This document shows, in pieces, positions 12,068 through 64,000 of a stretch of 64,000 nucleotides of DNA; position 1 is the first letter of the stretch; every line of letters starts with the position of its first letter. The stretch comes from an uncultured Actinomycetota bacterium (GTDB lineage Bacteria; Actinomycetota; UBA4738). The stretch covers positions 666,107 to 730,106 of the forward strand of contig CAWAGG010000006.1 of assembly GCA_963781595.1 (NCBI GenBank), in the 5' to 3' direction. The notes beneath the pieces are model-generated. The model was not told where the DNA came from, did no database searches, and saw nothing but the letters and a program-made list of their open reading frames with translations. A program made the position numbers and the translations under genes.

Positions 12068-12904
12068 GTGACGGTCACCTCGTCGCGCGACGGTGCGCCG
12101 CATGGCGCGAACGAGGGGGGCCGTTCCACACGGGCAGCGCCGATCGAGGCGCTGCGGGGGGGGTCTGAAGGATCCAACGGCGCCGCTGGGAGCACCCGGC
12201 TCCGGCTCCTCGGGCGCTTCGAACTCACCATCGACGGTGTCCCGAGGACGGTCCCCATCGCGGGACGAACGGTCCTCGCGCTCGTGGCGCTGGCCGAACG
12301 ACCGGTCCCGGTGAGCGACGCGGCCGCGACCCTGTGGCCCGCGACGGACCCCGGATGGGCGCCGGAGCGCCTCCGGTACGCGATGGAGAGCCTGGAGCGC
12401 GCGGGGCTCGACCTCGTCGACGAGCGTGATGGGATGCTGTCGCTCTGTCCGAACGTGCGGGTCGACGTCGCCGAGTCGCTCGCCACGGCTGCCTGGATCT
12501 CGAGCATGCCCGCAGCCGTGGCCGTCCCGCTCGACGAGGTCGCGGCGGAGGTTCGCCGCTGGGGCGACCTCCTCCCGGGCTGGTCCGACGATCACATCCT
12601 GATCGAACGGGAGCGCGTCCGGCGGATCCGCCTGCGTGCGCTCGAGGAGCTGGCCGAGCGATCGCTCCGTGACGGACGAGCCCGCGATGCGATCGAGGCC
12701 GCGAGCGCCGCCGTCGAGGCCGAACCCCTCCGCGAACGCGCCTGGAGCGCGTTGATCCGTGCCCACCTGGCCGCCGGCGACGCCCCGGGCGCGATACGCC
12801 GCTACGCCGCGTTCCATCGGCTCCTGTTCGGCGAGCTCCGGCGCGTCCCATCGATCGACCTCGAAGACCTGGTGCCCCCGCTGACGGTGGCGCTGACGAC
12901 GTGA
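12068..12904 (+). CDS. SARP/AfsR-type regulator (OmpR-like winged helix plus BTAD domain)
   Basis: LRLLGRFELTIDGVPRTVP...LLALVALA is followed by the BTAD signature EPLRERAWSALIRAHLAAGDAPGAIRRYAAFHRLLFGEL. Confidence 0.8.
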   Translation: MTVTSSRDGAPHGANEGGRSTRAAPIEALRGGSEGSNGAAGSTRLRLLGRFELTIDGVPRTVPIAGRTVLALVALAERPVPVSDAAATLWPATDPGWAPERLRYAMESLERAGLDLVDERDGMLSLCPNVRVDVAESLATAAWISSMPAAVAVPLDEVAAEVRRWGDLLPGWSDDHILIERERVRRIRLRALEELAERSLRDGRARDAIEAASAAVEAEPLRERAWSALIRAHLAAGDAPGAIRRYAAFHRLLFGELRRVPSIDLEDLVPPLTVALTT

Positions 12905-43590: not shown

Positions 43591-43785
43591 ATGAAGAAGT
43601 TGCTCCTGATCATCGGTTTGATCGCGGCGGTCGGTGCGATCCTCATGGTGCTGCGCAACCGCGGATCGGACATCTCGGTCTCGGACTGGGACGACGTGCA
43701 GGGCGTCGCCTCGGATGTGTCCGCGTCGGCGAAGGACGCCGTGTCGGATGCCGCCGAGGCCGCGAAGGACGCGACGAACGCCTGA
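43591..43785 (+). CDS. Small (64 aa) membrane-anchored protein
   Basis: SD AGGAGG at 43575-43580. Product begins MKKLLLIIGLIAAVGAILMVL, then an acidic Ala/Ser/Asp tail. Confidence 0.55.
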   Translation: MKKLLLIIGLIAAVGAILMVLRNRGSDISVSDWDDVQGVASDVSASAKDAVSDAAEAAKDATNA

Positions 43786-43917
43786 GGTCGACGGACCGCG
43801 CGGCCCGTTCCGGTCGGGTTCCGCGCGCGAGGACGAACGGCATGTTACGGCCGCCGGCTCGGCATCGAGGAGCCGGCGGCCGCGCCATCTCCCGACGACC
43901 CGGTCCTGGCGCTCGGC

Positions 43918-45337
43918 CTACCGGAGGATCGAGCGGAGCACCCGCCGGCGGACGTACGTGTACGGCGGGTACTGCAGCGGCACCTCGGGCCTCGTCGGCT
44001 TCCACAGGACCGCCCGCCGGTGGCTGAACGTCTCGAAGCCGTGCCGGCCGTGGTACGCGCCCATGCCGCTGTGGCCGATCCCACCGAAGGGCAGGCCGGG
44101 CACGGCCAGGTGCACGACGCAGGTGTTCACGCAGGCCCCGCCCGACCGGGTGGAGCCGATGACGCGGTCCGCCGTCGCCTCTGAACGCGTGAACACGTAG
44201 AGCGCCAACGGTTCCGGGCCCGGCCCGTACCGTGGCGATCGCCTCGGCGATCTCGTCGAACGCGATCACCGGCAGGATCGGTCCGAAGATCTCCTCGCCC
44301 ATCAGCGGCGCATCCGGCCGCACGCCGCGCACGATGGTCGGCGCGATGTACCGTTCGGCCTCGTCCCGCTGGCCGCCGAGCACGAGCTCTTCGTAACCGC
44401 CGCCGTCGATGAGTGCGGCCAGACGGCGGAAGTGGTTCGCGTTCACGATCCTCGCGTAGTCTGCGCTGTGCCTCGGATCGGGCCCGTAGAAGCCCCCGAC
44501 CTCGGCGACGAGGAGCTCCAGCAGGCGCGCTTCCACGCGACGGTCGACGAACACGTGGTCGGGCGCGACGCACGTCTGGCCGGCGTTGATGAATTTCCCG
44601 TACGCGATGCGGCGGGCGACGACCGGGAGGTCCGCGTCAGCGGCGACGATGGCCGGGGACTTCCCGCCCAGCTCGAGCGTTACCGGGGTCAGGTGCGTCG
44701 ACGCGGCCTCCATGACGATCCGCCCGACGCGCGCGTTCCCCGTGTAGAAGATGTGGTCGAACCGCTCGGCGAGGAGCGCCTGGGTCTCCTCGACGCCTCC
44801 CTCGACGATCGCGACCCCGTCCGGGTCCAAGTAGCGCCGGACCAGCCCGGCGAGGGCCTCCGATGTCGCGGGCGCGAGCTCGGAGGGCTTGCCCACCACC
44901 GCATCACCGGCGGCGATCGCGGCCGCCATCGGGGCGAAAAGGAGCTGGACCGGGTAGTTCCACGGCGCGATCACGAGCGCCACGCCGACCGGCTCCCGGA
45001 CGATCCGCGCGCGGGCCGGTTGCAGCACCCAGCGAACCCGGACGCGTTCCGGGCGCATCCACGCGTCGATGTTGCGGAGCAACCCGTCGATCTCGCCGAG
45101 GACGAACGAGATCTCGCTGACCCAGGTCTCGATCGGCGGCCGGCCCAGGTCCTCGCGGAGGGCCGCCTCCAGCGGGCGCGCTCCGTCGCGGAGGAGCCGT
45201 TGCATCGCGCGGAGCTGCGTCCGGCGCCACGCCAGCGGACGCGTGCGCCCGGCCTCGAACCCGCGGCGGAGCCGGCCGACGACTTCCGAGGCCGTCCGGC
45301 CGGGCGTGGCATCCACGGCATCCATCAGGAGGGTCAT
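43918..45337 (-). CDS. Class-3-like NAD(P)+ aldehyde dehydrogenase, frame broken once as sequenced
   Basis: Motifs VIAPWNYP, ELGGKSP and GQTCVAPD, up to ..IATVRAGP, are in one frame. EPLALYVFTRSE...FGGIGHSGMGAYHG is in another (switch at 44211-44223, context gggcccgg). Length mod 3 = 1. Confidence 0.7.
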
Positions 45338-46159: not shown

Positions 46160-46816
46160 TCAGGCCGCTTGCCGCTGCCGACCGCGACCCGTGCGCTCGG
46201 CCCGTTCCTTCAGCCCGAGCAGCTCCCTGCGCATCATCGGGAAGTCGCCGAACTCGAACAGGATCAAGGACACGAGCGCCATCGCCGGAGAGCGCCAGTC
46301 GTACCGATCCTTCAGGCGCACGACCAGGCACGTTCGGCGCCCGTCGTCGAGCGGGGTGAGCCGCCAGACCCAGATGCTGTGTGGCTTCGTCCACAGCAGC
46401 GACGCGTTCGGTTCGAACGCCGTCACCCGGAAGGCGGTCGTCTCGTTGACGGTTCCCGACATCGGCACCCAGTCGCCGACGTGCGGATCCTGGTACTCGG
46501 GCAGGATCTCCGTCGCACTCGGCCGGGCGCCGTTGTCGAACAGGTCGTAGCTGTAGAAGCCCGCCTTCCCGGTGCCGATCTGGACCAGCCACGGCCATAC
46601 CGCCTCCGGCGGAGCATCGATCGTGATCGCGCTCGTCGCGCAGAACGACGGGTTCGGCACCATCTCGTCGCCCGGCATCGAGCCGGTCACCTCGTCGTCG
46701 GTCGCACCCCACCGCAGGTGTCGACGGCGCCGGAGGGGCGCCGTCGCGAACGACGGGAGCGCGACGAGCGCGTCTCGGACGCTGCCTGCCAGGTCTCGCT
46801 GCACGTCGTGACCCAT
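46160..46816 (-). CDS. SRPBCC (START/Bet v1-like) superfamily protein
   Basis: ATG at 46816 after GGGAGGG. Contains IDAPPEAVWPWLVQIG..KAGFYSYD. Confidence 0.65.
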   Translation of the reverse strand: MGHDVQRDLAGSVRDALVALPSFATAPLRRRRHLRWGATDDEVTGSMPGDEMVPNPSFCATSAITIDAPPEAVWPWLVQIGTGKAGFYSYDLFDNGARPSATEILPEYQDPHVGDWVPMSGTVNETTAFRVTAFEPNASLLWTKPHSIWVWRLTPLDDGRRTCLVVRLKDRYDWRSPAMALVSLILFEFGDFPMMRRELLGLKERAERTGRGRQRQAA

Positions 46817-46985
46817 CTCAGGCCCTCCCTCGTCTCGGACCGTCCCTCCGCACCGAGACTCCGTCTCGCGAGCGGACGCGTGTCGAGGCGATAGTCCTGA
46901 CCCGATCCGGCCGAACGACCGGTTCGTCAGCCATGGCGTTGCGCGAGCCGATCGAGCATCTGCTCGCCGCATGAGTGGGCGGCTC

Positions 46986-47306
46986 TCACTCGGAGACGTC
47001 GAGGTCGACGCGGAACCGGTCGATCACGGATGATTCGTCCCAGGCTTGCCGATGGTCGATCGCCAGGCGCCGCCGGCCGCCGGCCGAGACCCGGAATCGG
47101 AAACTGCGCATCCCTCCGCTGCCAACCTGCGGATGAGGAGCGAGCTCGAACGAGTCCGCCTCGGGCTGGAGCGCGTCGTCGGCTCGCTCGACCTGCCATC
47201 GGTAGCCGGTGGTCGGGTTCTCGCGCAGTCGAACGACGACCTCATCGCCCACATGGACCGCGACCGCCTTCCCGTTGTCCGCTTCGGTGAGCGTCACGGT
47301 CGCCAT
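46986..47306 (-). CDS. Chagasin/ICP family (I42) cysteine-peptidase inhibitor, no signal peptide
   Basis: 106 aa. Contains VAVHVGDEVVVRLRENPTTGYRWQ (the NPTTGY loop) and later FRFRV. Confidence 0.8.
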   Translation of the reverse strand: MATVTLTEADNGKAVAVHVGDEVVVRLRENPTTGYRWQVERADDALQPEADSFELAPHPQVGSGGMRSFRFRVSAGGRRRLAIDHRQAWDESSVIDRFRVDLDVSE

Positions 47307-47329
47307 CGTCGAAGAGCCGGCCCGGCGCC

Positions 47330-47728
47330 CTACGTCTTCCTCGTCCGTGATCGCCTGGCGGGTGCGGATGCTCCGGCGACGTCATCCGGCGCCGGCGGTT
47401 CGGCCGCCCCGCCGAGGGCGGTTCCCAGCTCCTCGAGCGACATCGGAGCCGGTGGGCCGCTCGCGCCCTCGAGACCAGCCAGGTCCTCCGGCGCCGGCGC
47501 GCCGCCGAACCCCGGTGCCCCGAGGCTCTCGATCGGCATCGGTCCGGCCGCGCCGCCCATGGCGGCCGCCGATCCCAGGTCACCGGGCGCCGGGCCACCT
47601 GCGCCGACCGCGCCCGAGGGCGATCCCAGCTGGTCGAGCGGCAGAGGGGCCGGCGATGTCGTCGAGACCTGCGATGCGGCCGCCGCGTCGGACGGCAGCG
47701 AGATGTGGATGGTGACGTCAGATCCCAC
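47330..47728 (-). CDS. Pro/Gly/Ala-rich repeat protein (six P-x-P-acidic-Leu-Gly units)
   Basis: GTG at 47728. Repeat units are PLPLDQLG, PAPGDLG, PMPIESLG, PAPEDLAG, PAPMSLEELG and PAPDDVAG. About four fifths of third codon positions are G/C by eye. Competing + strand ORFs exist. Confidence 0.45.
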   Translation of the reverse strand: MGSDVTIHISLPSDAAAASQVSTTSPAPLPLDQLGSPSGAVGAGGPAPGDLGSAAAMGGAAGPMPIESLGAPGFGGAPAPEDLAGLEGASGPPAPMSLEELGTALGGAAEPPAPDDVAGASAPARRSRTRKT

Positions 47729-47820
47729 GGGCTACCTCTCCTCCCTCGGGTAGGCGCCGAACCAGGCTACGGGTTCGGCGACGTGCCCTCCATCGGTCTG
47801 GTGTCGGAGCGCTGAGCCTT

Positions 47821-48033
47821 CTACATGTAGGCCGCCGTGATGTTCTTGCTCGCATCCTGCACGATGTAGACCGACTTGCCTGTGGCTTTCGCCGCACACA
47901 GGAGCACGAACACGTTCGTGACGCCGTCGGCCGCGCCGGTGAGGATCTTGTGCCATGCGCTGTCAGACGCCAAGTGAGCCCAGCAGTTCTGCGAGTCCCT
48001 GCTCGCGTACACCTGATTGATCGTCGTCCACAC
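47821..48033 (-). CDS. 70-aa protein homologous to the C-terminal extension of the adjacent C1 protease
   Basis: AGGAGG lies about 10 nt upstream of the GTG. It aligns with protease residues ~300-367 (YASRDSQNCWAH..DGVTNVF..AKATGKSVYIV vs YATRDAQNAWAY..DGVTNML..AKANGRPVTIY). Confidence 0.65.
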   Translation of the reverse strand: MWTTINQVYASRDSQNCWAHLASDSAWHKILTGAADGVTNVFVLLCAAKATGKSVYIVQDASKNITAAYM

Positions 48034-48065
48034 CGTTCACACACCTCCTGAACCGTTCGTCTCGT

Positions 48066-49169
48066 TCACAGCATGTATGCGATGTACACGTAGTCGGCGT
48101 CGGCGTAGATCGTGACCGGCCGACCGTTCGCCTTCGCCTGCCCGAACATGGTGAGCATGTTCGTGACGCCGTCCGAGGCGCCTGGGTGGATGCGACGCCA
48201 GCCGAGGTTCTGGAAGTACGCCCATGCGTTCTGCGCATCGCGGGTCGCGTAGGTCTGGACCACGGAGACGTTGCTCTGCCATGCGCTCGGAAGCGTGACG
48301 CCCGCGACGGAGTACATCATCCAGGATGAGTCGATCAGCAGGTCCGGCTGTCCGTACCGGATCCGGACGAACCCGCCGTCCCCCCAACCCGCGCCCCAGC
48401 TGTTCTTCAAGATCCAGCATTGCTGTGCGTCGTCGTAGCCGACGCAGCTGATGCAATGGTAGCCGGCCAAAGGTGATCCCGCGGTCTTCACGTAGACGCC
48501 ACTGTGATACGCGAAGAAGTCGTTGAAGACGGCCATTCCCGCGAGGACCGGACCGATGGATGCGATCGCGTTCTTCCGGGCATCCATGGTGGCGTAGCCC
48601 GTGTAGCTCGAGATCTTCGTCAAACGGTTCGCCCAATCGGCACACCGACTGGTGGCGCAGTTCATGTCCGGGGGCGCCGCGTACGGCATGCACGCCTCGT
48701 CCGTGACCCCGGTGCTCTTCGCGAAGTCGAGTCCCGAGGTCAGGCCCCATCCGTCACAGCTTCCGCCCCCGCAGAACTGCAGGAAGCCCTCCGAGAGATC
48801 GATGCTGTACGAGGGATTCCCGAGCTTGATGCGGACGGCGGACTCGATCGTGGAGCATGTGCAGAACGAAACGCACGACCCGCATTGGAGTTGGTTCTTC
48901 ACCGGGGTGACGTAGCTCTGACCCCCGACGTTCCGCCAGTCGACGGACGTTGGAGCCCCCACGGCGGCGGCTGCGACCGAACGTTCTTGCACTGCGGTCT
49001 GATGGAACTCGGCGACCATCCGTTGGTGTTCGTCGGGTGTCACGATCAGCCCGAGGACGCTCTTGCGATCCTCCGCGGGGAGCTTGGTCAGTTCGTTCTC
49101 GCTGGCCGTCCAGGGCAGCTGCTCGCTCTCGATCGCTGACGCGATCGCCCGGATCTCTTCCTTCGCCAT
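48066..49169 (-). CDS. Papain-family (C1A) cysteine protease with a short pro-region and a novel C-terminal domain, no signal peptide
   Basis: Contains PTSVDWRN..VTPVKNQLQCGSCVSF (catalytic Cys), GYHCISCVGYD (His) and ILKNSWGAGWGDGGFVRI (Asn). SD GGAGGTGG precedes the ATG. Confidence 0.85.
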   Translation of the reverse strand: MAKEEIRAIASAIESEQLPWTASENELTKLPAEDRKSVLGLIVTPDEHQRMVAEFHQTAVQERSVAAAAVGAPTSVDWRNVGGQSYVTPVKNQLQCGSCVSFCTCSTIESAVRIKLGNPSYSIDLSEGFLQFCGGGSCDGWGLTSGLDFAKSTGVTDEACMPYAAPPDMNCATSRCADWANRLTKISSYTGYATMDARKNAIASIGPVLAGMAVFNDFFAYHSGVYVKTAGSPLAGYHCISCVGYDDAQQCWILKNSWGAGWGDGGFVRIRYGQPDLLIDSSWMMYSVAGVTLPSAWQSNVSVVQTYATRDAQNAWAYFQNLGWRRIHPGASDGVTNMLTMFGQAKANGRPVTIYADADYVYIAYML

Positions 49170-49334
49170 TGGCCACCTCCAATGCGCTCACGTGCCCGCG
49201 CATCTCTGGATACGGCCGAGGCCCGAGGCCTCGTCGTCGCCTTCCCCCTTCCTCCTCGATCGTCGCACTCCGCCGATGCCATGCGCACCTGAGCGCAGTT
49301 TGGCGCCTGGTCGTCACGCTGGTGTCATGCGAGC

Positions 49335-49370
49335 ATCACCCGAGCGTCACGCGATCATCACCCGAGCGTC
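49335..49370. repeat. Direct repeat ATCACCCGAGCGTC x2 with a 22-bp period, upstream of the protease cassette
   Basis: Copies at 49335-49348 and 49357-49370, read directly from the sequence. Confidence 0.8.
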
Positions 49371-49536
49371 GTTCGAGCCCGCTTGAACAGGCATTCGGGT
49401 CGCTGGTCACGGCCGATCAGACCGCGTCCAATCGCTCTTCCGAGGTGAACCGGCGCTCGCCCGGCTACGCGACGTCGGATCTCGCGTCGACGGCGATGAC
49501 GCGATCGGCGCTGGCGGCTCGCCGCCCGCCCTCACG

Positions 49537-49791
49537 ATGGTGCACGGCCCGGCTGCCGGTTTGACGGTGCTGGATCCCGTCGACGAACGGCTGGCCGGTC
49601 ACCAGCGCCTCGACGCGGTCCGTGCGCGGCTATCGGAGATGGCGGGTGAGACGGAGGCCGCGCTCGCGGCCTATCGCATCGCGGTTCGGCGGACCACGAA
49701 CGTTCCGGAACGGGACTACCTGACGGCGCGAGCCGCTCGACTCAGGGTCAGCGATCATGCGCACACCCTCGCCGGGGACGACGCGAGCTGA
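49537..49791 (+). pseudogene. 3-prime remnant of an ECF-type sigma factor gene (C-terminal TPR-like tail only)
   Basis: MVHGPAAGLTVLDPVDERLAGHQRLDAVRARLSEMAGETEAALAAYRIAVRRTTNVPERDYLTARAARL matches the conserved tail of a large actinobacterial sigma-24 family. No sigma region 2/4 lies upstream. Confidence 0.45.
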
Positions 49792-49956: not shown

Positions 49957-50499
49957 ATGGAGCTCGAACCGTACGTCGAGAGCATCACGCACCAGCTCGA
50001 GACCGCCGCCGAGGCTGGTGGGGACGAGGCTCGGGCCTTGGCCGACCGCCTGGTCGCGCCGCTCGACGCCGCGATCCGGCTGGCCGTCCAGGATGCGTTG
50101 GCCAGGGCGGCGGAAGAGATCACCCTCGAATTGACGCCTGGCTCCGTCGAGCTGCGGCTGCGCGGGCGCGAGCTCGAGTTCGTGGTCAGCCTCCCCCCGG
50201 CCGACCCATCCGCCGAGGGTGTCGCCGCCGAGGACGTCCTGGCGAGAGGGTGGCTGACCCGGGCGTCGGGGCAAGGCGACGGGGCCGGCGTCGACGACGC
50301 CACGGTGGCACGGATCAACCTGAGGCTGCCGCAGCGCATGAAGGCCCGTGTCGAGCAGGCGGCCGGGAGCGAAGGGCTCTCCGTCAACGCCTGGCTGGTG
50401 CGAGCGGCCGCCGCGGCGTTGGAACGGGGGGAACCGGTGGGTCGACGCGAACGACGAACCGCGCACGGCGCGCAGCGCTACACGGGCTGGGCGCGCTAG
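49957..50499 (+). CDS. Ribbon-helix-helix (Arc/CopG/HicB-like) domain protein
   Basis: C-terminal RINLRLPQRMKARVEQAAGSEGLSVNAWLVRAAAAAL. This family commonly precedes DUF4097 genes. Confidence 0.65.
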   Translation: MELEPYVESITHQLETAAEAGGDEARALADRLVAPLDAAIRLAVQDALARAAEEITLELTPGSVELRLRGRELEFVVSLPPADPSAEGVAAEDVLARGWLTRASGQGDGAGVDDATVARINLRLPQRMKARVEQAAGSEGLSVNAWLVRAAAAALERGEPVGRRERRTAHGAQRYTGWAR

Positions 50500-50568
50500 C
50501 AAATGGGAGGTGTCTCGCGAATGACCCTCGAGCAGGAGCCCGACGGCAGGTACCGAGGAGGAAGACCG

Positions 50569-51453
50569 ATGCCCACCTTCGATACACCCGAACCGATCTC
50601 ACTCACCCTGGACGTCGGGGTCGGCGACGTCCGGATCGATGCGACCGATCGCGACGACACGACCGTCGATGTGCAGCCGAGCAACCCTGCGAAGAGGGCC
50701 GACGTGACCGCCGCCGCGGAGACCCGCGTCGAGTACTCGAACGGCACCCTGCTGGTCAAGGCGCGGAAGGGATGGCGCCAGTGGACGCCGTGGGGCGGCA
50801 ACGAGTCGATCGACGTCCGGATCGAGCTGCCGACGGGCTCGACGGTGCAGGGCGCGTCGGGGGTCGCGGCCCTGCGATGCACCGGACGGCTCGGCGCCTG
50901 CCGGTACCGGACGGGCGTCGGGGACATCGCGCTCGAGCGGACCGGCCCGGTGGAGCTGAGGACCGGCTTCGGCGACGTGTCCGCGGACGTCATCGGAGGC
51001 ACGGCAGAGATCCGGACCGCCGGGAACATCAGGGTCGGCAGGATCGATGGGCCGGCCGCGATCAAGAACTCGAACGGCGACACGTGGATCGGCGAGATCG
51101 CGGGCGAGGCTCGCGTCAACGCGGCCAACGGCGCGATCTCCATCGACCTCGCGCGCGCGGGTCTCGAGGCCAAGACCGCCAACGGCAACGTCCGTCTCGA
51201 CGCGGTCGCGGGCGGTGCCGTCGTCGCTCAGAGCGCGCTCGGGTCCCTGGAGATCGGTGTGCCGGACGGGGTTCCCGCCTGGCTGGACCTGGAGACGCGG
51301 TTCGGCAACGTCCGGAACGACCTGAACGACCTGAACGACGCCGAGCGTCCCGCGCCCGGGGAACGCGCCGTCGAGGTCCGCGCCCACACCTCGATGGGAG
51401 ACATCACGGTCCACCGCTCGTTCGCGAGCAGCACGAGGGAGGAGGAGCGATGA
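50569..51453 (+). CDS. DUF4097 (beta-helical adhesin-like repeat) protein
   Basis: SD GGAGGAAG upstream. Product begins MPTFDTPEPISLTLDVGVGDVRI. Repeated G.G.I.. strands, and a tail SMGDITVHR. Confidence 0.75.
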   Translation: MPTFDTPEPISLTLDVGVGDVRIDATDRDDTTVDVQPSNPAKRADVTAAAETRVEYSNGTLLVKARKGWRQWTPWGGNESIDVRIELPTGSTVQGASGVAALRCTGRLGACRYRTGVGDIALERTGPVELRTGFGDVSADVIGGTAEIRTAGNIRVGRIDGPAAIKNSNGDTWIGEIAGEARVNAANGAISIDLARAGLEAKTANGNVRLDAVAGGAVVAQSALGSLEIGVPDGVPAWLDLETRFGNVRNDLNDLNDAERPAPGERAVEVRAHTSMGDITVHRSFASSTREEER

Positions 51454-52409
51454 CCACCACCGTCGCGCCCGCGGCGCTCGAGGTGACCGGCCTCCGCAAG
51501 TCGTTCGGCGACAAGGTAGCCCTGGACGGGATCGACCTGAACGTCCCCGAGGGCTCGATCTTCGCGCTGCTCGGGCCGAACGGCGCCGGCAAGACGACGG
51601 CCGTGCAGATCCTGTCCACGTTGATCCGTGCCGACGCCGGTGAGGTTCGCGTCGCTGGGAACGATCCGGTCCGCCACCCGGAGGCGGTGCGTGAGGTGAT
51701 CGGCGTCACCGGCCAGTTCTCCGCCGTGGACAACATCCTCACCGGCGAAGAGAACCTGACCCTCATGGCCGACCTGAACCACCTGGCACGGGACGAGGGC
51801 CGGCGACGCGTTGCCGACCTCCTCGAGCGACTGAACCTCGTGGAGGACAGCCGGAAGCCGGCCGCGACCTACTCGGGGGGGATGCGTCGCAGGCTCGACC
51901 TCGCGATGACCTTGCTGGGCGAGCCTCGGATCATCTTCCTCGACGAGCCGACGACCGGACTCGACCCGCGGAGCCGCCGCACCGTGTGGCGGATCGTCCG
52001 TGAGCTCGTGGAACGGGGGGTCACGATCTTCCTCACGACGCACTACCTGGAGGAGGCCGATCAGCTCGCCGACCGCGTGGCGCTCCTCGACCACGGGAGG
52101 CTGATCGCCGAGGGCAGTCCCGACGAACTCAAACAGCTCATCCCAGGAGGGCATGTCCGCCTGGAGTTCGCGGATGCGCAGGCGCTCGAAGCGGCGGCAA
52201 CGGCGCTCCCGCGGTCCAGCAGAGAGGACGACGCCCTCGCCCTCGAGATCCCGGGCGACGGGGGGGTCCGGTCGCTCCGAGCCCTGCTCGACCGGCTCGA
52301 TGCGGCGTCGATCCAGGTCGAACGCATCGCGATCCACACGCCGGATCTCGACGACGTCTTCCTGGCCCTCACGGGCCATCCCGAGGAGGAAGGAGGAACG
52401 CTCCGATGA
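51450..52409 (+). CDS. ABC transporter ATP-binding protein (DrrA-like)
   Basis: ATGA overlap with the upstream stop. Walker A GPNGAGKTT, signature YSGGMRRR, Walker B IIFLDEPTTGLD. Confidence 0.9.
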   Translation: MTTTVAPAALEVTGLRKSFGDKVALDGIDLNVPEGSIFALLGPNGAGKTTAVQILSTLIRADAGEVRVAGNDPVRHPEAVREVIGVTGQFSAVDNILTGEENLTLMADLNHLARDEGRRRVADLLERLNLVEDSRKPAATYSGGMRRRLDLAMTLLGEPRIIFLDEPTTGLDPRSRRTVWRIVRELVERGVTIFLTTHYLEEADQLADRVALLDHGRLIAEGSPDELKQLIPGGHVRLEFADAQALEAAATALPRSSREDDALALEIPGDGGVRSLRALLDRLDAASIQVERIAIHTPDLDDVFLALTGHPEEEGGTLR

Positions 52410-60994: not shown

Positions 60995-61342
60995 ATGGAG
61001 CTCACCTTCGATCGCGTCGAGCTCGCCGAGGTCTGCAACTCTGCGCCGCTCATGAGAGCGCGTTGGGGTGATGAGGGGTTCGAGGCCGTGGCCCGCCGGC
61101 TGGGAGAGTTGGCCGGAATCGAGTCGCTCGCGGACATCACCTACCTACCCGGCGCGCGCATGAGGGGAGACGGTTCGGGCATGATGCTCCTCGGCTTCGG
61201 AGCGAGCGTCGTCATACAGGGGATTACGACCGACGATGCGGGTGCTCCTGTGTCCGTGGATGGGGATCGACCCGTGACCTGCTTCAGGGTGCATGAGGTC
61301 GAATACTTGGGGAAGGAGAACGTCGATGGTGCCCTCGGCTGA
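60995..61342 (+). CDS. HigB-like (RelE superfamily killer protein) candidate
   Basis: MELTFDRVELAEVCNSAPLMRARWGDEGFEAVARRLGELAGIESLADITYLPGARM follows the HigB N-terminal pattern. It overlaps the downstream HigA-type gene by 17 nt. Confidence 0.4.
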   Translation: MELTFDRVELAEVCNSAPLMRARWGDEGFEAVARRLGELAGIESLADITYLPGARMRGDGSGMMLLGFGASVVIQGITTDDAGAPVSVDGDRPVTCFRVHEVEYLGKENVDGALG

Positions 61343-62408
61343 CCTCGCCTATCGGCCGGACCACGTCATCGCTCCGGGGGCGACCCTGCGCGACCGGCTC
61401 GCGGAGATTGATGTGTCGCAGGCAGAGCTCGCTCTGCGAGCGGGCCTGTCACCGAAGCATGTGAACCAGATCGTCCAGGGCCAGGCATCGATCACGCCGG
61501 AGACGGCCCTCATCCTCGAGCGGGTGACGGGGACGCCGGCGAGGATCTGGAGCGCGCTCGAATCACGCTACCGCCAAGCCAAGATGAGGGAGCAGGCCAG
61601 AACGCTGTCGCCCGAGGACGTCGCGTGGGTGGATTCCCTCCCTACCGCGAGCCTTCAGAAGATGGGCTATCTCCCCTCAGCGATCCCTCGCGGCGAGCTG
61701 TTCGAGGCGCTCCTCTCGTTCTTCGGCGTCGCCGACCGCGCGGCGTGGGAGCGCCTCTGGCTGCAGCCGGTGGCGAGTTTCAAACGCGCGACGGCGTTCA
61801 AGAGCGATGGACCGATCGTCGCGACCTGGCTCCGCTTGGGGGAGCTCGATGCACGAGACATCAAGACGGCGAGCTTCAACGCCTCCGACTTTCGAGCAGC
61901 ACTCTCGCACATCCGCGGGCTCACTCGAGCGGCCGACTTCTCAGCCGAGTTGGTCGCGGCGTGCGCGAAGGCAGGGGTGGCCCTCGTGTTCGTGCGGGAG
62001 ATCGGCGGCGAGCGAGCGAGCGGGGCGAGTCGATGGCTCAGTGCGTCCCGTGCCCTCATACAGCTCAGCGACCGCTACAAGCGGGAAGATCATTTCTGGT
62101 TCGCCTTCTTCCACGAGGCTGCCCACGTCCTATTGCATTCGAAGAAGCAGACGTTCATCCATGACGGCAGCGAGGATCCGAGACTCGAGGGGGAAGCGAA
62201 CAGATTCGCGAGTGACGTGCTGATCCCGCGTTCGCAGGCTCATCGCCTTCCGCACCTCACAACTACCTCGGACGTTCTTCTCTTCGCAGATGAGATCGGT
62301 ATAGCGCCGGGCATCGTCGTCGGGCGACTTCAGCATGATCACTTCTGGTCCTGGAAGCGAGGCAACGATCTCAGGGCCCCTGTCCGGATCGTGTCCTCAG
62401 ATCGGTAG
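61326..62408 (+). CDS. HigA-type XRE HTH fused to an ImmA/IrrE (M78) metallopeptidase domain
   Basis: HTH: VIAPGATLRDRLAEIDVSQAELALRAGLSPKHVNQIVQGQASITPETALILERVTG..IWSALESRY. Peptidase: FAFFHEAAHVLLH plus EANRFASDVLIP. Confidence 0.75.
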   Translation: MVPSADLAYRPDHVIAPGATLRDRLAEIDVSQAELALRAGLSPKHVNQIVQGQASITPETALILERVTGTPARIWSALESRYRQAKMREQARTLSPEDVAWVDSLPTASLQKMGYLPSAIPRGELFEALLSFFGVADRAAWERLWLQPVASFKRATAFKSDGPIVATWLRLGELDARDIKTASFNASDFRAALSHIRGLTRAADFSAELVAACAKAGVALVFVREIGGERASGASRWLSASRALIQLSDRYKREDHFWFAFFHEAAHVLLHSKKQTFIHDGSEDPRLEGEANRFASDVLIPRSQAHRLPHLTTTSDVLLFADEIGIAPGIVVGRLQHDHFWSWKRGNDLRAPVRIVSSDR

Positions 62409-62728
62409 ATTAGATGGCATCGTGGCCAGATTCACCCAGCGGGGTCTCTGCACGTTGGTGTTCCTCCGGGCCTTCATCGCGCAGGACGATTGACGACCTG
62501 GCTGGCGACGACCATCGGTTCATCGCCCAAGCGTTCTGCAACACGCCGAACGTACTGATCATGGTCTGCGAGTCGACGGCAACAGGCCGCATCGCACCGG
62601 GGTGTTCGCGTTTCGTGCCGGCTATACACAACGCCACTTGACTGGCGCGTACCCACGGGTGCGCGCAGAAGCATGCCTCCATCCGTCCCCCCGAGGAGGC
62701 TTGAGTTCCGGAGAACTCGGCAGGCCCG

Positions 62729-63286
62729 TCATCTACCTACGCAGTATTCCTCGCTGGCGCTATCACGCCGCCCACACGCTGCCACGTCGACAACACGATA
62801 ACCCCCGCCCTGATCGCCGTTAACCGAGAAGAGGATGGACCGATCTGCATCCGTCGTCGAGCAGGTGAGGCTGGTCCGGTTCACCCAACTGCAGTAGTCG
62901 GGAGGCGGATAGCGTGGCTCCCAGCGGATCGCGAAGAGCGTTGCGGCGGCGGTCTTCGTGGCAACGATGCCGGCATCGGACCTGTTGAAGGTGCGCCAGT
63001 CATCGTAGAGCCGTTGCGCGGTCACGAGAGCGGCCGCTGGATACGCGTTCGTCGTCGCGGGTACCGACGTTCCACCCGGGCTCGCTGGAGAGGTCGGAGC
63101 CTTCGCGCACGAGACGGCGAGCGAGAGCGCGATCAGCGCCATCGCGCAGCCGGCAGCGCGCGCGCCGAGAAGACGGGTCCCGCTCACGGTGGATGAATCG
63201 GCTCGGTGCTCTCTAACCTTGAGGTGCTTAGGTTGCCAATTGCCCGGTCCCCACGTGTGGGGCCTACGCGATGCGTATCCTTTCAT
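62729..63286 (-). CDS. Lipoprotein-like small protein immediately downstream of the Rhs toxin tip (possible immunity protein)
   Basis: ATGA overlap with the Rhs stop at 63283-63286. Internal lipobox ALSLAVSCAK. Four further Cys. The true start may be internal. Confidence 0.45.
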   Translation of the reverse strand: MKGYASRRPHTWGPGNWQPKHLKVREHRADSSTVSGTRLLGARAAGCAMALIALSLAVSCAKAPTSPASPGGTSVPATTNAYPAAALVTAQRLYDDWRTFNRSDAGIVATKTAAATLFAIRWEPRYPPPDYCSWVNRTSLTCSTTDADRSILFSVNGDQGGGYRVVDVAACGRRDSASEEYCVGR

Positions 63287-64000
63287 CGCCGGCCTCGGTC
63301 AGGCCTGAGAGCAAAGAAACAGACCTGCTGGGACCATTCGTCCCTTGCCAGGCCCGTATAGACATCCAAGATCTCGGCAGGATCCCCGGTAACGCCGACG
63401 TATCGAGCGACGAACGCCCATGCGACGGTCTCGGTCGGATTGTGCTTGGGGAATATCCGCAGGCAATCGAGTGCGATGCCCGGAATGATGAGTCGTACGG
63501 CTGTGCCGTGGCAAGGGCCACCAGCACGATAGAAGTCCATGGTGTCATACGCCGCCGAGTACAGCTGCCCGAGCGCATCACAGGCCGCACTGAGGTTCGG
63601 ACAGAGTCCAGATGGGTCCGGTTGAGTAAGTGGTTGATTGTCGCCGTACGGATACGGTGATGTCAGTGGAGACGCGTGGGCTGAACCGAGTGGATCTGCC
63701 TGGTTGAATCGTCCGAGCGAAGGGTCGTAAACACGAGCCCGCAGGTCGTACAGGCTCGAAGCCGAGTCGAGGAGCTGTCCATTGAATCGCATCACGTTCG
63801 TCGGGGGGCTCCCGCCCGAGGAGGTCGCCGAGGTCGCGACCCCGAACGCGTCATAGGCGTACGTCCACCGGGTCGCGCCGCCTGAGGTCGTGATGTTCGC
63901 GACGTTGCCGTACGCGTCCAGGTGGTCGTAGTACGTCGATCCGGCACCTGTCGTCATCGAGTCCAGGCCCTGGCCGTGCGCGTAGTCCCGGAGCGTCGAT
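63283..64000 (-). CDS. Rhs/YD-repeat protein, C-terminal end with a variable toxin tip (5-prime part outside the window)
   Basis: YD repeats (YDHLDAYGNV, YAYDAFG). Core end RFNGQLLDSASSLYDLRARVYDPSLGRFNQADP and the DPSGL boundary, then a ~105-aa unrelated tail. Confidence 0.8.
   Translation of the reverse strand, partial: STLRDYAHGQGLDSMTTGAGSTYYDHLDAYGNVANITTSGGATRWTYAYDAFGVATSATSSGGSPPTNVMRFNGQLLDSASSLYDLRARVYDPSLGRFNQADPLGSAHASPLTSPYPYGDNQPLTQPDPSGLCPNLSAACDALGQLYSAAYDTMDFYRAGGPCHGTAVRLIIPGIALDCLRIFPKHNPTETVAWAFVARYVGVTGDPAEILDVYTGLARDEWSQQVCFFALRPDRGRR

What the first reader, a model, noticed from the sequence alone, without database searches (positions are those of the whole stretch)
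46986..49169. Cytoplasmic papain-like protease co-encoded with its own chagasin-type inhibitor and two accessory proteins in a lower-GC cassette
Four co-directional genes have short gaps of 32, 92 and 23 nt. They encode: a C1A protease with all catalytic motifs (QCGSC, GYHC..VGYD, NSWG) but no signal peptide; a 70-aa copy of the protease C-terminal domain; a Pro/Gly/Ala repeat protein; and an I42 chagasin/ICP inhibitor (NPTTGYRW), also without a signal peptide. Chagasin-family proteins are tight inhibitors of C1 peptidases. A bacterial operon pairing enzyme and inhibitor in the cytoplasm resembles a toxin/antitoxin or a triggerable protease module. The cassette is visibly more A/T-rich than its flanks (not quantified) and abuts a truncated sigma-factor gene, which suggests insertion.
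Basis: partly seen in the sequence, partly recalled or inferred. Interest (0 to 1): 0.75.

Follow-up and report, generated by a model that had tools for sequence, protein, structure and literature searches.

The report
Leaderless protease cassette with own inhibitor
A four-gene unit that recurs in the same order in MAGs named Actinomycetota and Rhodospirillales encodes a papain-type protease without an export signal, its own chagasin-type inhibitor, and two accessory proteins that also accompany at least four other protease families, which points to an undescribed way of organising proteases.

Summary
Four minus-strand genes (49169-46986) encode a C1A protease without a signal peptide, a 70-aa copy of its C-terminal domain, a Pro/Gly/Ala repeat protein and an I42 chagasin-type inhibitor.

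The same four genes, in the same order, occur in all five other distinct loci examined, with unrelated flanks. Two of them are MAGs named Actinomycetota and Rhodospirillales. It is therefore a conserved cassette that sits in different genomic contexts.

The main new result concerns the 70-aa unit. It is a confidently modelled OB-fold whose best structural matches, none statistically significant, are AB5-toxin B subunits and the inclusion protein CipA. The same domain ends leaderless proteases of other families (M6, M10, M12A, S8). Each is again followed by a free ~70-75-aa copy and, wherever the contig reaches far enough, an acidic proline-rich protein. I42 is the extra gene specific to the C1A version.

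I read I42 as self-protection of the producer, and the OB domain, its free copy and the repeat protein as an assembly or scaffold module. This mechanism is inferred, not shown.

The toxin/antitoxin reading is neither supported nor excluded. The low GC affects only two of the genes and comes from amino-acid composition. The truncated sigma-factor gene is real. The promoter carries five hexamers at 11-nt spacing, resembling SARP activator sites.

The parts
49312..49361 (-). Five direct hexamers, (G/A)TGA(C/T)(G/A), at exact 11-nt spacing, 143-192 nt upstream of the protease start codon. Candidate binding sites for a SARP (BTAD) family activator.
   Evidence: Read from the sequence. The pattern GTGAYG-N5-GTGAYG-N5-GTGAYG occurs once in the 64-kb window, with 0 expected from shuffles. 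It also lies upstream of the protease in L088 and beside the BTAD gene in L087. Near-matches lie upstream of the protease in L086 and L087. That these are SARP sites is inferred from the known heptad/11-bp architecture of such sites.
48960..49169 (-). Protease N-terminal about 70 aa: a short pro-region-like extension with no signal peptide.
   Evidence: The ORF cannot be extended upstream, and a GGAGGTGG ribosome-binding site lies 5 nt before the ATG. The strongest hydrophobic 12-residue window in the first 60 aa scores 0.57. Query residues 20-271 align to residues 67-313 of a 331-residue cathepsin L-like chain, 3qj3; that the chain is a proenzyme is my reading. The region is conserved in 42 of the 80 distant prokaryotic C1 loci.
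48285..48959 (-). C1A (papain-family) catalytic domain.
   Evidence: PF00112 matches residues 73-274 at E=4.7e-40. Best PDB sequence matches are cathepsin C, ananain and cathepsins L/S/K. Q93, C99 and N256 are invariant and H238 nearly so, and ten cysteines are conserved.
48066..48284 (-). Protease C-terminal domain (about residues 296-367), an OB-fold module shared with other protease families.
   Evidence: 43% identical to the 70-aa protein. The AF2 model shows strands 296-308, 315-319 and 323-327, helix 335-347, then strands 351-356 and 360-366, with block-mean pLDDT about 65-83. A profile of the 70-aa family finds this domain at the C-terminus of M6, M10, M12A and S8 proteases.
47821..48033 (-). 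Free-standing 70-aa OB-fold paralogue of the protease C-terminal domain.
   Evidence: 88 further homologues were found, nearly all exactly 70 aa and 51-84% identical. AF2 gives pLDDT 94.5 with topology b1-b2-b3-helix-b4-b5. Foldseek best matches are CipA 7xhs, the LT/CT B subunit 3efx_G (TMq 0.73), SubB and CfxB, and APSE-1 P7 in the viral library (TMq 0.71). All E-values are 0.05 or higher. An AGGAGG ribosome-binding site precedes the GTG start.
47330..47728 (-). Acidic Pro/Gly/Ala-rich repeat protein: N-terminal strand motif 'VTIHISLP', six PxP-centred repeats 15-20 residues apart, and a basic C-terminal tail.
   Evidence: Conserved in position and architecture in the window and five other distinct C1A loci (alignment A3). 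PxP sites lie at residues 26, 46, 63, 78, 93 and 112. Analogous third genes follow in M6/M12A, M12A, M10 and S8 cassettes, including an AT-rich genome. No Pfam match.
46986..47306 (-). Leaderless chagasin-family (I42) inhibitor.
   Evidence: PF09394 at E=5.2e-17. A profile of the cassette I42s matches P. aeruginosa ICP 2wgn and T. cruzi chagasin at E about 1e-18 to 1e-19. The NPTTG motif, G62/G64 of the G-x-G-G motif and the W of the third loop are invariant in six orthologues. The protein begins directly at the domain, with no signal or Tat motif.
49390..49791 (+). Boundary marker: a 3' fragment of an ECF-type sigma factor (DUF6596 family) gene that lacks its N-terminal two thirds. It diverges from the cassette.
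   Evidence: tblastn against plasmids: residues 48-121 of the 134-aa fragment are 50-58% identical to regions annotated 'sigma-70 family RNA polymerase sigma factor' or 'DUF6596 domain-containing protein'. No Pfam hit. Frame read.
12068..12904 (+). SARP/BTAD-like regulator (278 aa), a possible but unproven activator of the cassette, about 36 kb away.
   Evidence: 33-40% identical to the BTAD regulators that sit next to the cassette in L086, L087 and L088. Those three are 40-46% identical to each other.

Best explanation
The four genes form one conserved operon found in unrelated genomic contexts.

Gene 1 makes a papain-family (C1A) protease in the cytoplasm. It has a short pro-region, an intact catalytic Gln-Cys-His-Asn set and a C-terminal OB-fold domain.

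Gene 4 makes a leaderless chagasin-type inhibitor. I infer that it blocks the protease active site with its three loops and so protects the producer cell. This is an immunity role, as staphostatins play for staphopains and emfourin for protealysin.

Genes 2 and 3 are a free copy of the OB-fold domain and an acidic proline-rich protein with five to six short repeats. They form a protease-organising module that is not specific to C1A. The same triad accompanies leaderless M6, M10, M12A and S8 proteases.

The most likely mechanism is inferred, not shown. The fused OB domain co-assembles with the free paralogue into a hetero-oligomer, in the way AB5 B subunits or CipA oligomerise. The protease-resistant Pro-rich protein acts as a multivalent ligand or scaffold. 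The result would be an inhibited, stored protease complex, made on demand under a SARP-type activator. It would act after release from the cell or after loss of the inhibitor.
For: Shown:
- Gene content and motifs.
- The identical four-gene order in the window and five other distinct loci with unrelated flanks, two of them MAGs named Actinomycetota and Rhodospirillales.
- 21 further contig lengths are shared between the protease and 70-aa homologue lists, which I take to mean the same contigs.
- I42 matches solved chagasin/ICP sequences at E about 1e-18 and keeps all three inhibitory motifs.
- The 70-aa protein is a confidently modelled OB-fold (pLDDT 94.5). Its best structural matches are oligomerising OB proteins: CipA, LT/CT-B, SubB, CfxB and APSE-1 P7.
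- CipA is an OB-fold tetramer resembling LT-IIB B subunits (PMC9530169). Per an abstract listed, Cip proteins cluster enzymes fused to them into inclusions.
- The same domain ends proteases of families M12A, M6, S8 and M10.
- The order protease-CTD, then free copy, then Pro-rich protein recurs in L089, L090, L094, L115, L122, L123 and L125.
- In Cryobacterium sp. MLB-32, a Pro-rich N-terminal extension is fused to the free OB paralogue. Such a fusion hints that the two interact.
- SARP-like boxes lie in the promoter, and homologous BTAD regulators adjoin three cassettes.

From the literature: co-encoded inhibitors of bacterial proteases are established precedents (PMC7863939; PMC9505478).
Against: - No interaction, inhibition, localisation or phenotype has been measured.
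- All Foldseek E-values are 0.05 or higher, so only the fold is established, not homology to AB5 B subunits or Cip proteins. A sequence profile finds no solved relative.
- The full-length protease model is poor (pLDDT 58.6), so the position of the OB domain relative to the active site is unknown.
- No export or lysis function is encoded in the cassette, so how or whether the protease leaves the cell is unexplained.
- The non-C1A cassettes mostly lack a recognisable inhibitor gene (L089, L122). The triad therefore does not always need one.
- The third protein could be a substrate rather than a scaffold.
Confidence: 0.45

Rival explanations
1. One reading: a toxin/antitoxin-like or phage/stress-triggered intracellular protease. 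The protease is a cytoplasmic toxin held by I42, and loss or displacement of the inhibitor unleashes proteolysis of host or phage proteins (abortive infection or programmed death).
For: All components are leaderless. The cassette sits in unrelated genomic contexts. I42 diverges faster than the protease and the 70-aa protein: 36-55% identity against 60-75% and 51-84%. Swapping of catalytic classes on a constant accessory module is a pattern also seen in defence systems. Deleting emfourin led to an earlier decline in culture density in Serratia, which the authors suggest may reflect protease toxicity.
Against: No PADLOC match for any of the four proteins or their neighbours. Flanks are mostly metabolic, biosynthetic and transport genes in no recurring context, not defence islands. 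I42 has no DNA-binding or other antitoxin-like domain. The protease comes first in the operon. All partner proteases belong to families that are typically secreted and digestive. They have pro-regions and conserved cysteines; that these sit at extracellular-type disulfide positions is my inference. Regulation appears to be by a SARP-type activator. The DNA pattern gave one viral-contig match, and it carries no CTD domain.
Confidence: 0.2
2. An AB-type protease toxin. The OB-fold domain fused to the protease, together with free OB subunits, forms a B-like ring. The ring binds a surface ligand on another cell (eukaryotic or bacterial) and delivers the protease. I42 is the immunity protein.
For: Five of the top eight PDB fold matches are AB5 B subunits (LT/CT-B TMq 0.73, SubB, CfxB), and the best high-TM viral match is APSE-1 P7. 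SubAB, whose chains are among the fold matches (4bwg, 'subtilase cytotoxin'), is to my knowledge a precedent for a serine-protease A subunit with an OB-fold B pentamer. The third protein carries five to six repeats, a number that would fit a pentameric or hexameric ring. A few family members do carry signal peptides (P0275, P0355).
Against: Neither the protease nor the free subunit has a signal peptide, whereas AB5 toxins assemble after Sec export (established knowledge). The fold matches are not statistically significant, and the OB-fold is very common. No secretion or lysis gene is linked. The named hosts are environmental MAGs with no known host association.
Confidence: 0.15
3. A peptide-maturation cassette. 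The Pro-rich repeat protein is a multi-core precursor that the protease cuts at each repeat to release short peptides, and I42 times the processing.
For: Five to six regularly spaced repeats such as PAPMSLEEL/G, each followed by Leu-Gly or Leu-x, would suit a papain-type P2-hydrophobic preference. The gene lies in the protease operon.
Against: Similar Pro-rich proteins accompany proteases with unrelated specificities (M6, M10, M12A, S8). Their repeat sequences differ, for example LPTPF and IPPPPT. No modification enzymes or exporters are linked. Repeat sequences are poorly conserved apart from PxP. Proline-rich sequence is generally protease-resistant (general knowledge).
Confidence: 0.1

Closest known systems
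Staphopain-staphostatin operons of Staphylococcus aureus (C47 protease with I57 inhibitor)
   Same: A papain-fold cysteine protease has a specific endogenous inhibitor (PMC7863939). That the two are co-transcribed and that the inhibitor is leaderless and guards the cytoplasm is my own knowledge, not shown in the passages read.
   Different: Staphopains are secreted. The inhibitor is a beta-barrel of family I57, not an Ig-like I42. There is no OB-fold domain, free paralogue or Pro-rich protein.
Protealysin-emfourin operon of Serratia proteamaculans (M4 protease with its inhibitor)
   Same: An intracellular protease of a normally secreted family has its inhibitor in the same operon. The authors propose an effector/immunity role (PMC9505478).
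   Different: It has two genes only and a different protease and inhibitor family. It has no C-terminal OB domain and no accessory proteins.
Chagasin/ICP family I42 (T. cruzi chagasin, P. aeruginosa ICP, Pseudomonas Cpi1)
   Same: Gene 4 has the same fold family and the same three inhibitory loop motifs. It matches these solved proteins at E about 1e-18.
   Different: The characterised bacterial members are Sec-exported lipoproteins aimed at host plant proteases (bioRxiv 10.64898/2026.06.02.729523). This one is leaderless and paired with a bacterial C1A gene.
AB5 toxins, especially subtilase cytotoxin SubAB
   Same: An enzymatic subunit (a subtilase-family protease in SubAB) is combined with small OB-fold subunits. 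The 70-aa model superposes on B subunits at TM 0.6-0.73.
   Different: AB5 components carry signal peptides, and the A subunit docks through an A2 helix rather than a fused B-like domain. No sequence similarity was detected. An oligomeric state has not been shown here.
CipA/CipB crystalline inclusion proteins of Photorhabdus
   Same: CipA is the top Foldseek match (7xhs, probability 1.0). It is a cytoplasmic, leaderless, self-assembling OB-fold protein (PMC9530169). Engineered enzyme-Cip fusions co-assemble with free Cip into inclusions (abstract listed). That is the architecture seen naturally here: an enzyme-OB fusion next to a free OB protein.
   Different: No sequence similarity. Cip proteins are about 100 aa with an N-terminal arm. 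No natural protease fusions, Pro-rich partner or inhibitor are known for them. Inclusion formation is untested here.
Type II toxin-antitoxin modules
   Same: A potentially harmful enzyme and its neutralising protein are co-encoded in a cassette found in unrelated genomic contexts.
   Different: This cassette has four genes. The neutraliser has no DNA-binding domain and comes last. The enzyme belongs to a digestive protease family and has a pro-region. There are no PADLOC hits.

Membership tests
Peptidase family C1A (papain family) | Match to the family profile above the curated threshold | tested here: met
   PF00112: 138.4 bits against a cutoff of 20.7, E=4.7e-40, residues 73-274. Best PDB matches are cathepsin C, ananain and cathepsins L/S/K.
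Peptidase family C1A (papain family) | Catalytic Gln-Cys-His-Asn residues | tested here: met
   Q93, C99 (in QCGSC) and N256 (in KNSWG) are invariant, and H238 (in GYHC) is nearly invariant, across 23 homologues.
Peptidase family C1A (papain family) | Synthesis as a secreted or vesicular pre-pro-enzyme with a signal peptide | tested here: not met
   No hydrophobic N-terminal segment in the window protein or in 120 homologues. The start codon is fixed by an upstream stop and a ribosome-binding site. A short pro-region-like segment is present.
Peptidase family C1A (papain family) | Proteolytic activity | not testable with these tools
   Requires enzyme assays.
Chagasin / ICP inhibitor family I42 | Match to the family profile above the curated threshold | tested here: met
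   PF09394: 62.4 bits against a cutoff of 27.2. A profile of cassette orthologues hits 2wgn, 2fo8, 2nnr and 2nqd at E=4e-19 to 4e-18.
Chagasin / ICP inhibitor family I42 | Three inhibitory loop motifs: NPTTG, G-x-G-G and (R)P-W | tested here: met
   NPTTGYRW, GSGG and Q-A-W are present. N30-G34, G62, G64 and W89 are invariant in six orthologues. The Arg-Pro before the Trp is not conserved.
Chagasin / ICP inhibitor family I42 | Tight inhibition of C1 peptidases | not testable with these tools
   Requires kinetics with the co-encoded protease.
Co-encoded bacterial protease/inhibitor operon (staphopain-staphostatin, protealysin-emfourin type) | Protease and cognate-class inhibitor conserved in one operon, with a leaderless inhibitor | tested here: met
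   Linked in the window and all five other distinct loci of the close family and in about 10 of 80 distant C1 loci. The inhibitor starts directly at the domain.
Type II toxin-antitoxin system | Two-gene module whose antitoxin carries a DNA-binding domain and autoregulates | tested here: not met
   Four genes. I42 has only the inhibitor domain. The promoter has activator-type direct repeats.
Known anti-phage defence systems (PADLOC-DB v2) | Match of any component to a defence-system protein model | tested here: not met
   No hits at E<=0.01 for the four proteins or three neighbours.
AB5 toxins | OB-fold B subunit | tested here: inconclusive
   The topology is b1-b2-b3-helix-b4-b5, with TM 0.56-0.73 to LT/CT-B, SubB and CfxB. 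E-values are 0.2-0.4, and there is no sequence-level match.
AB5 toxins | Sec signal peptides on the A and B subunits, with periplasmic assembly | tested here: not met
   No signal peptide on the protease or on the 70-aa protein.
AB5 toxins | Pentameric B ring holding the A subunit | not testable with these tools
   Multimer prediction and biophysics were not available.
Cip-type crystalline inclusion proteins | Leaderless OB-fold protein that self-assembles in the cytoplasm | tested here: inconclusive
   Top Foldseek hit is 7xhs (probability 1.0, TMq 0.65, E=0.05). There is no sequence similarity. Self-assembly is untested.

The most novel reading that the evidence does not exclude
The cassette is one branch of a widespread, undescribed protease-organising system. 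In this system, leaderless zymogen-type proteases from four identified catalytic families (C1A, M6, M10, M12A, S8 make five with this one) plus one unassigned 368-aa protein are each fused to a Cip/AB5-B-like OB-fold domain. Each is co-encoded with a free copy of that domain and a protease-resistant, multivalent proline-rich scaffold. Together they would self-assemble into a cytoplasmic protease depot or an AB-type particle. This would be a natural counterpart of engineered Cip-fusion inclusions and a signal-peptide-independent route to deploying extracellular-type proteases. Class-specific inhibitors such as I42 would serve as immunity proteins.
Probability: 0.3. Interest if true: 0.85.

Novelty: new variant of a known kind. 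Interest (0 to 1): 0.72.

Why it matters
Co-encoded protease-inhibitor pairs are known in bacteria. An endogenous bacterial C1A/chagasin pair, leaderless on both sides and conserved as a four-gene unit in unrelated genomic contexts, did not turn up in the five literature searches I ran.

The characterised bacterial chagasins are exported lipoproteins aimed at host enzymes. This cassette would give the family an endogenous bacterial target.

More broadly, the shared OB-fold C-terminal domain has no Pfam or NCBIfam model. With its free paralogue and Pro-rich partner, it links proteases of five identified families. That suggests a general, unrecognised way in which bacteria store, assemble or deliver degradative proteases made without signal peptides.

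If the co-assembly idea is right, it would be a natural precedent for enzyme-scaffold inclusions and a new modular toolkit for biotechnology.

The system is directly testable. It is small and self-contained, and a variant is present in a non-MAG genome record, Cryobacterium sp. MLB-32.

Tried and rejected
- NCBIfam and PADLOC scans of the four proteins and neighbours found nothing relevant.
- Pfam gave no hit for the 70-aa protein, the repeat protein or the sigma fragment. The sigma fragment was identified by tblastn instead.
It was useful for I42 adjacency but not for close relatives.
- My own degenerate DNA pattern gave 30 matches, of which only 2 (L094, L115) were real.
- The same pattern gave one chance match in viral contigs, with no domain there. 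There is thus no sign of phage carriage.
- AF2 of the full protease from a shallow alignment was poor (pLDDT 58.6) and was not used for fold search.
- A profile of the OB domain against PDB sequences gave only spurious hits to designed TIM barrels.
- BNR/Sortilin-repeat proteins found by the OB profile (P0326, P0337, P0343) were rejected as motif look-alikes of the Asp-box.
- Consensus promoter and terminator scans found nothing in 46700-49600.
- No tRNA gene lies in the window, so there is no tRNA integration site nearby.
- The GC argument for recent transfer was rejected because GC3 is host-like.
- Five of six literature searches found no description of this cassette or of the shared domain.


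Full report
**1. What is in the sequence**

On the minus strand of the window lie four co-directional ORFs:
- 48066-49169 (367 aa)
- 47821-48033 (70 aa)
- 47330-47728 (132 aa)
- 46986-47306 (106 aa)

They are separated by 32, 92 and 23 nt. The first three are preceded by GGAGG-type ribosome-binding sites. The first ORF cannot be extended upstream.

Pfam assigns ORF1 to Peptidase_C1 (E=4.7e-40, residues 73-274) and ORF4 to Inhibitor_I42 (E=5.2e-17). ORF2 and ORF3 have no family. NCBIfam and PADLOC give nothing.

ORF2 is 43% identical to residues 302-366 of the protease (E=2e-15).

The protease N-terminus, MAKEEIRAIASAIESEQ..., has no hydrophobic segment. I42 starts directly at its domain. None of 120 protease homologues has a hydrophobic N-terminus.

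**2. Composition and boundaries**

Only the protease (GC 0.639) and the 70-aa gene (0.610) fall below the window mean (0.707, sd 0.028). The repeat gene is 0.759 and I42 is 0.682.

GC3 of the four genes (0.82-0.89) is close to that of the flanking genes (0.85-0.92). The dip therefore comes from codon positions 1 and 2, that is, from amino-acid composition. This is weak evidence for recent acquisition.

The upstream + strand frame at about 49390-49791 encodes only the C-terminal part of an ECF-type sigma factor. By tblastn it is 50-58% identical to regions annotated 'sigma-70 family RNA polymerase sigma factor' or 'DUF6596 domain-containing protein' (frame read). The truncated gene is real and marks a rearrangement at the cassette's upstream edge.

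No tRNA gene lies in the window.

**3. The cassette is conserved in unrelated genomic contexts**

The protease has 657 homologues at E<=0.001. The 119 best besides the window's own protein are 60-78% identical, nearly all about 365 aa long, and aligned over their whole length. The few that carry a source name are labelled Chloroflexota, Chloroflexia, Thermomicrobiales, Actinomycetota or Rhodospirillales.

The same order was found in all five other distinct loci whose neighbourhood I could read: protease, then a 70-aa gene, then a 131-152-aa gene, then an I42 gene. These loci are:
- a MAG named Actinomycetota (L082/L083)
- a MAG named Rhodospirillales (L084/L085)
- three long unnamed ENA contigs (L086-L088)

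Their flanking genes are completely different. L001 is a Logan re-assembly that carries the window's own four proteins.

Beyond the window's own contig, 21 contig lengths are shared between the protease list and the 70-aa list. I infer that these are the same contigs.

The 70-aa protein is exactly 70 aa in nearly all 88 further homologues and 51-84% identical. The I42 orthologues are more divergent, 36-55% identical. They keep the NPTTG motif, G62/G64 of the G-x-G-G motif and the Trp of the third loop. They match solved ICP and chagasin sequences at E of about 1e-18 to 1e-19.

Among 80 loci with more distant C1 genes, about ten have an I42 gene next to the protease. One is Cryobacterium sp. 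MLB-32. Another group consists of leaderless 640-680-aa C1 proteins.

**4. The protease itself**

Q93, C99 and N256 are invariant and H238 nearly so.

The first 70 or so residues behave as a short pro-region. Query residues 20-271 align to residues 67-313 of a 331-residue cathepsin L-like chain, 3qj3; that the chain is a proenzyme is my reading. The segment recurs in 42 of the 80 distant prokaryotic C1 loci, most of them encoding long multidomain proteins.

Ten cysteines are conserved. From my knowledge of the family, several sit at the positions of the papain disulfides. That is unexpected for an enzyme meant to work in a reducing cytoplasm. This is an inference and was not tested.

**5. The 70-aa unit is a new, shared protease domain**

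AF2 models the 70-aa protein with pLDDT 94.5 as b1-b2-b3-helix-b4-b5, the OB-fold topology.

The best Foldseek matches in the PDB are:
- the Photorhabdus crystalline inclusion protein CipA (7xhs, probability 1.0, TMq 0.65)
- AB5-toxin B subunits: LT/CT-B 3efx_G (TMq 0.73), SubB and CfxB

The best high-TM match among viral models is APSE-1 P7 (TMq 0.71). All E-values are 0.05 or higher, so only the fold is established. CipA is itself described as an OB-fold tetramer that resembles the LT-IIB B pentamer (PMC9530169).

A profile of the 70-aa family, searched against 1.84 billion representative proteins, found 156 hits. Many are free proteins of about 73-76 aa. The same domain also forms the C-terminus of other proteases:
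- astacins, M12A (P0223, P0282)
- InhA-like M6 peptidases (P0234, P0291)
- subtilases, S8 (P0330, P0319)
- matrixins, M10 (P0342, and the L115 protein)
- P0323, a 368-aa protein with no Pfam match

Reading their N-termini shows no signal peptides. Three family members do carry a signal or transmembrane segment (P0275, P0355, P0260).

**6. The triad is general**

In every locus I could fetch, the order is protease-CTD, then a free 71-75-aa copy. A small acidic Pro-rich protein follows wherever the contig extends far enough:

| Locus | Protease(s) | Free copy | Third gene |
|---|---|---|---|
| L089 | M6, plus an astacin (M12A) after the free copy | 75 aa | 128 aa |
| L090 | astacin (M12A) | 71 aa | start only |
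| L115 | M10 | 73 aa | 126 aa, then a 144-aa fourth ORF |
| L125 | M10 | 73 aa | start only |
| L094 | S8 | 73 aa | Pro-rich ORF of about 110 aa |
| L122 | S8 | 74 aa | 72 aa, in an AT-rich genome |
| L123 | unassigned, 368 aa | 73 aa | 113 aa |

The third proteins share three features:
- An N-terminal strand motif in 11 of 13: VTIRISV.PEG, HIVFNVNIPGDG, QITINISICPEG and DITITITVSGAGG.
- PxP-centred repeats. Nine of the eleven full-length products have four to eight, roughly 15-25 residues apart. The two shortest have two or three.
- A net negative charge.

In Cryobacterium sp. MLB-32, the free OB paralogue carries a Pro-rich N-terminal extension, and no separate third gene is present. This fusion hints that the two proteins work together.

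I42 is thus the class-specific addition to a general module. The 144-aa ORF in the M10 cassette of L115 is a candidate analogue.

**7. Regulation**

Upstream of the protease, at 49312-49361 on the minus strand, lie five hexamers (G/A)TGA(C/T)(G/A) at exact 11-nt spacing.

The triple pattern is unique in the window, with 0 expected from shuffles. It recurs upstream of the protease in L088 and beside the regulator gene in L087. Near-matches lie upstream of the protease in L086 and L087.

BTAD (SARP-type) regulators, 40-46% identical to one another, sit next to the cassette in L086-L088. The window has a 33-40% identical homologue 36 kb away, at 12068-12904.

Direct repeats with an 11-bp period are the known architecture of SARP sites (established knowledge). 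I infer activator-dependent, conditional expression.

**8. How it most likely works**

Shown: the gene content, the conservation of the arrangement, the intact catalytic and inhibitory motifs, the lack of signal peptides, the OB fold and the cross-family triad.

Inferred: I42 neutralises the protease in the producer. This is the role of staphostatins (PMC7863939) and emfourin (PMC9505478).

Also inferred: the fused OB domain co-assembles with the free paralogue, and the Pro-rich protein serves as a multivalent, protease-resistant scaffold. Engineered enzyme-Cip fusions that co-assemble with free Cip proteins into inclusions give a close artificial precedent (abstract listed).

The complex would store an extracellular-type protease in inhibited form until release or triggering. 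Confidence is about 0.45.

Rivals:
- a triggerable toxin or defence module (0.2)
- an AB-type toxin (0.15)
- a peptide-precursor system (0.1)

**9. Comparison with what is known, and novelty**

ORF1 meets the sequence criteria of C1A but not the secretory feature. ORF4 meets the sequence criteria of I42.

The cassette works like a protease/immunity operon. It fails the defining features of type II toxin-antitoxin systems and of AB5 toxins that I could test: no DNA-binding antitoxin, and no signal peptides.

The characterised bacterial chagasins are exported lipoproteins aimed at host proteases. Searches of the held literature found no description of this cassette or of the shared domain.

I rate it a new variant of a known kind, the co-encoded protease-inhibitor operon. 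It carries an accessory module that may prove to be categorically new.

**10. Limits**

There are no experimental data and no multimer prediction. The full-length protease model is poor. The fold matches are below significance.

The survey of non-C1A cassettes rests on seven loci, several of them cut by contig ends. Most taxonomy rests on MAG labels.

Noticed in passing
window 43643-45337 (-), with 43918-44208 (-): The aldehyde dehydrogenase ORF matches Pfam Aldedh only over residues 18-369. The expected C-terminal part is in another frame. This is an apparent frameshift, either a pseudogene or a sequencing error.
   Followed up: partly
window 12068-12904 (+): A 278-aa SARP/BTAD-like regulator, 33-40% identical to the regulators that sit next to the cassette in L086-L088. 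It may control the cassette from 36 kb away.
   Followed up: partly
window about 61200-63900: A second stretch with GC below 0.645 in 1.1-kb windows, as low as the protease region. Its content was not examined.
   Followed up: no
window 49957-52409 (+): A HicB/Arc-like 180-aa protein, a DUF4097 'toastrack' protein (50503-51453) and a probable ABC-transporter ATPase (read from Walker A/B and signature motifs, no Pfam scan) follow the sigma-factor fragment. This looks like a small stress-sensing and export cluster unrelated to the cassette.
   Followed up: partly
L082/L083 12322-14072: In the MAG named Actinomycetota, a PG_binding_1 protein and a second, shorter C1 peptidase (308 aa) lie 2-3 kb downstream of the cassette.
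   Followed up: no
L052, L056, L057, L060, L061 (protease match from about 8001; 6491 in L061): A separate group of leaderless 640-680-aa C1 proteins, each followed by an I42 gene, some overlapping the protease's end. MAG labels are delta-proteobacterium, Chlorobium, Thiotrichales, Proteobacteria and Anaerolineales. Leaderless C1/I42 pairing is therefore broader than this cassette.
   Followed up: partly
L115 1891-2325 (+): In an M10 cassette, a 144-aa fourth ORF overlaps the stop codon of the Pro-rich gene and has no Pfam match. It is a candidate cognate metalloprotease inhibitor, in the position that I42 holds here.
   Followed up: partly
L003 6879-7630 (Cryobacterium sp. MLB-32): A three-gene variant in a non-MAG genome record. 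The free OB paralogue carries a Pro-rich N-terminal extension. In the I42 gene, the NPTTG motif has degenerated to NQIGGAG.
   Followed up: partly
P0275, P0355, P0260: A few members of the OB-domain family carry an N-terminal signal peptide or transmembrane segment, unlike the rest. The only context I could fetch (L124) was too short to interpret.
   Followed up: partly
L089 675-3999: One cassette carries two different proteases, M6 and astacin. Each ends in the OB domain, and they share one free paralogue and one Pro-rich protein.
   Followed up: yes
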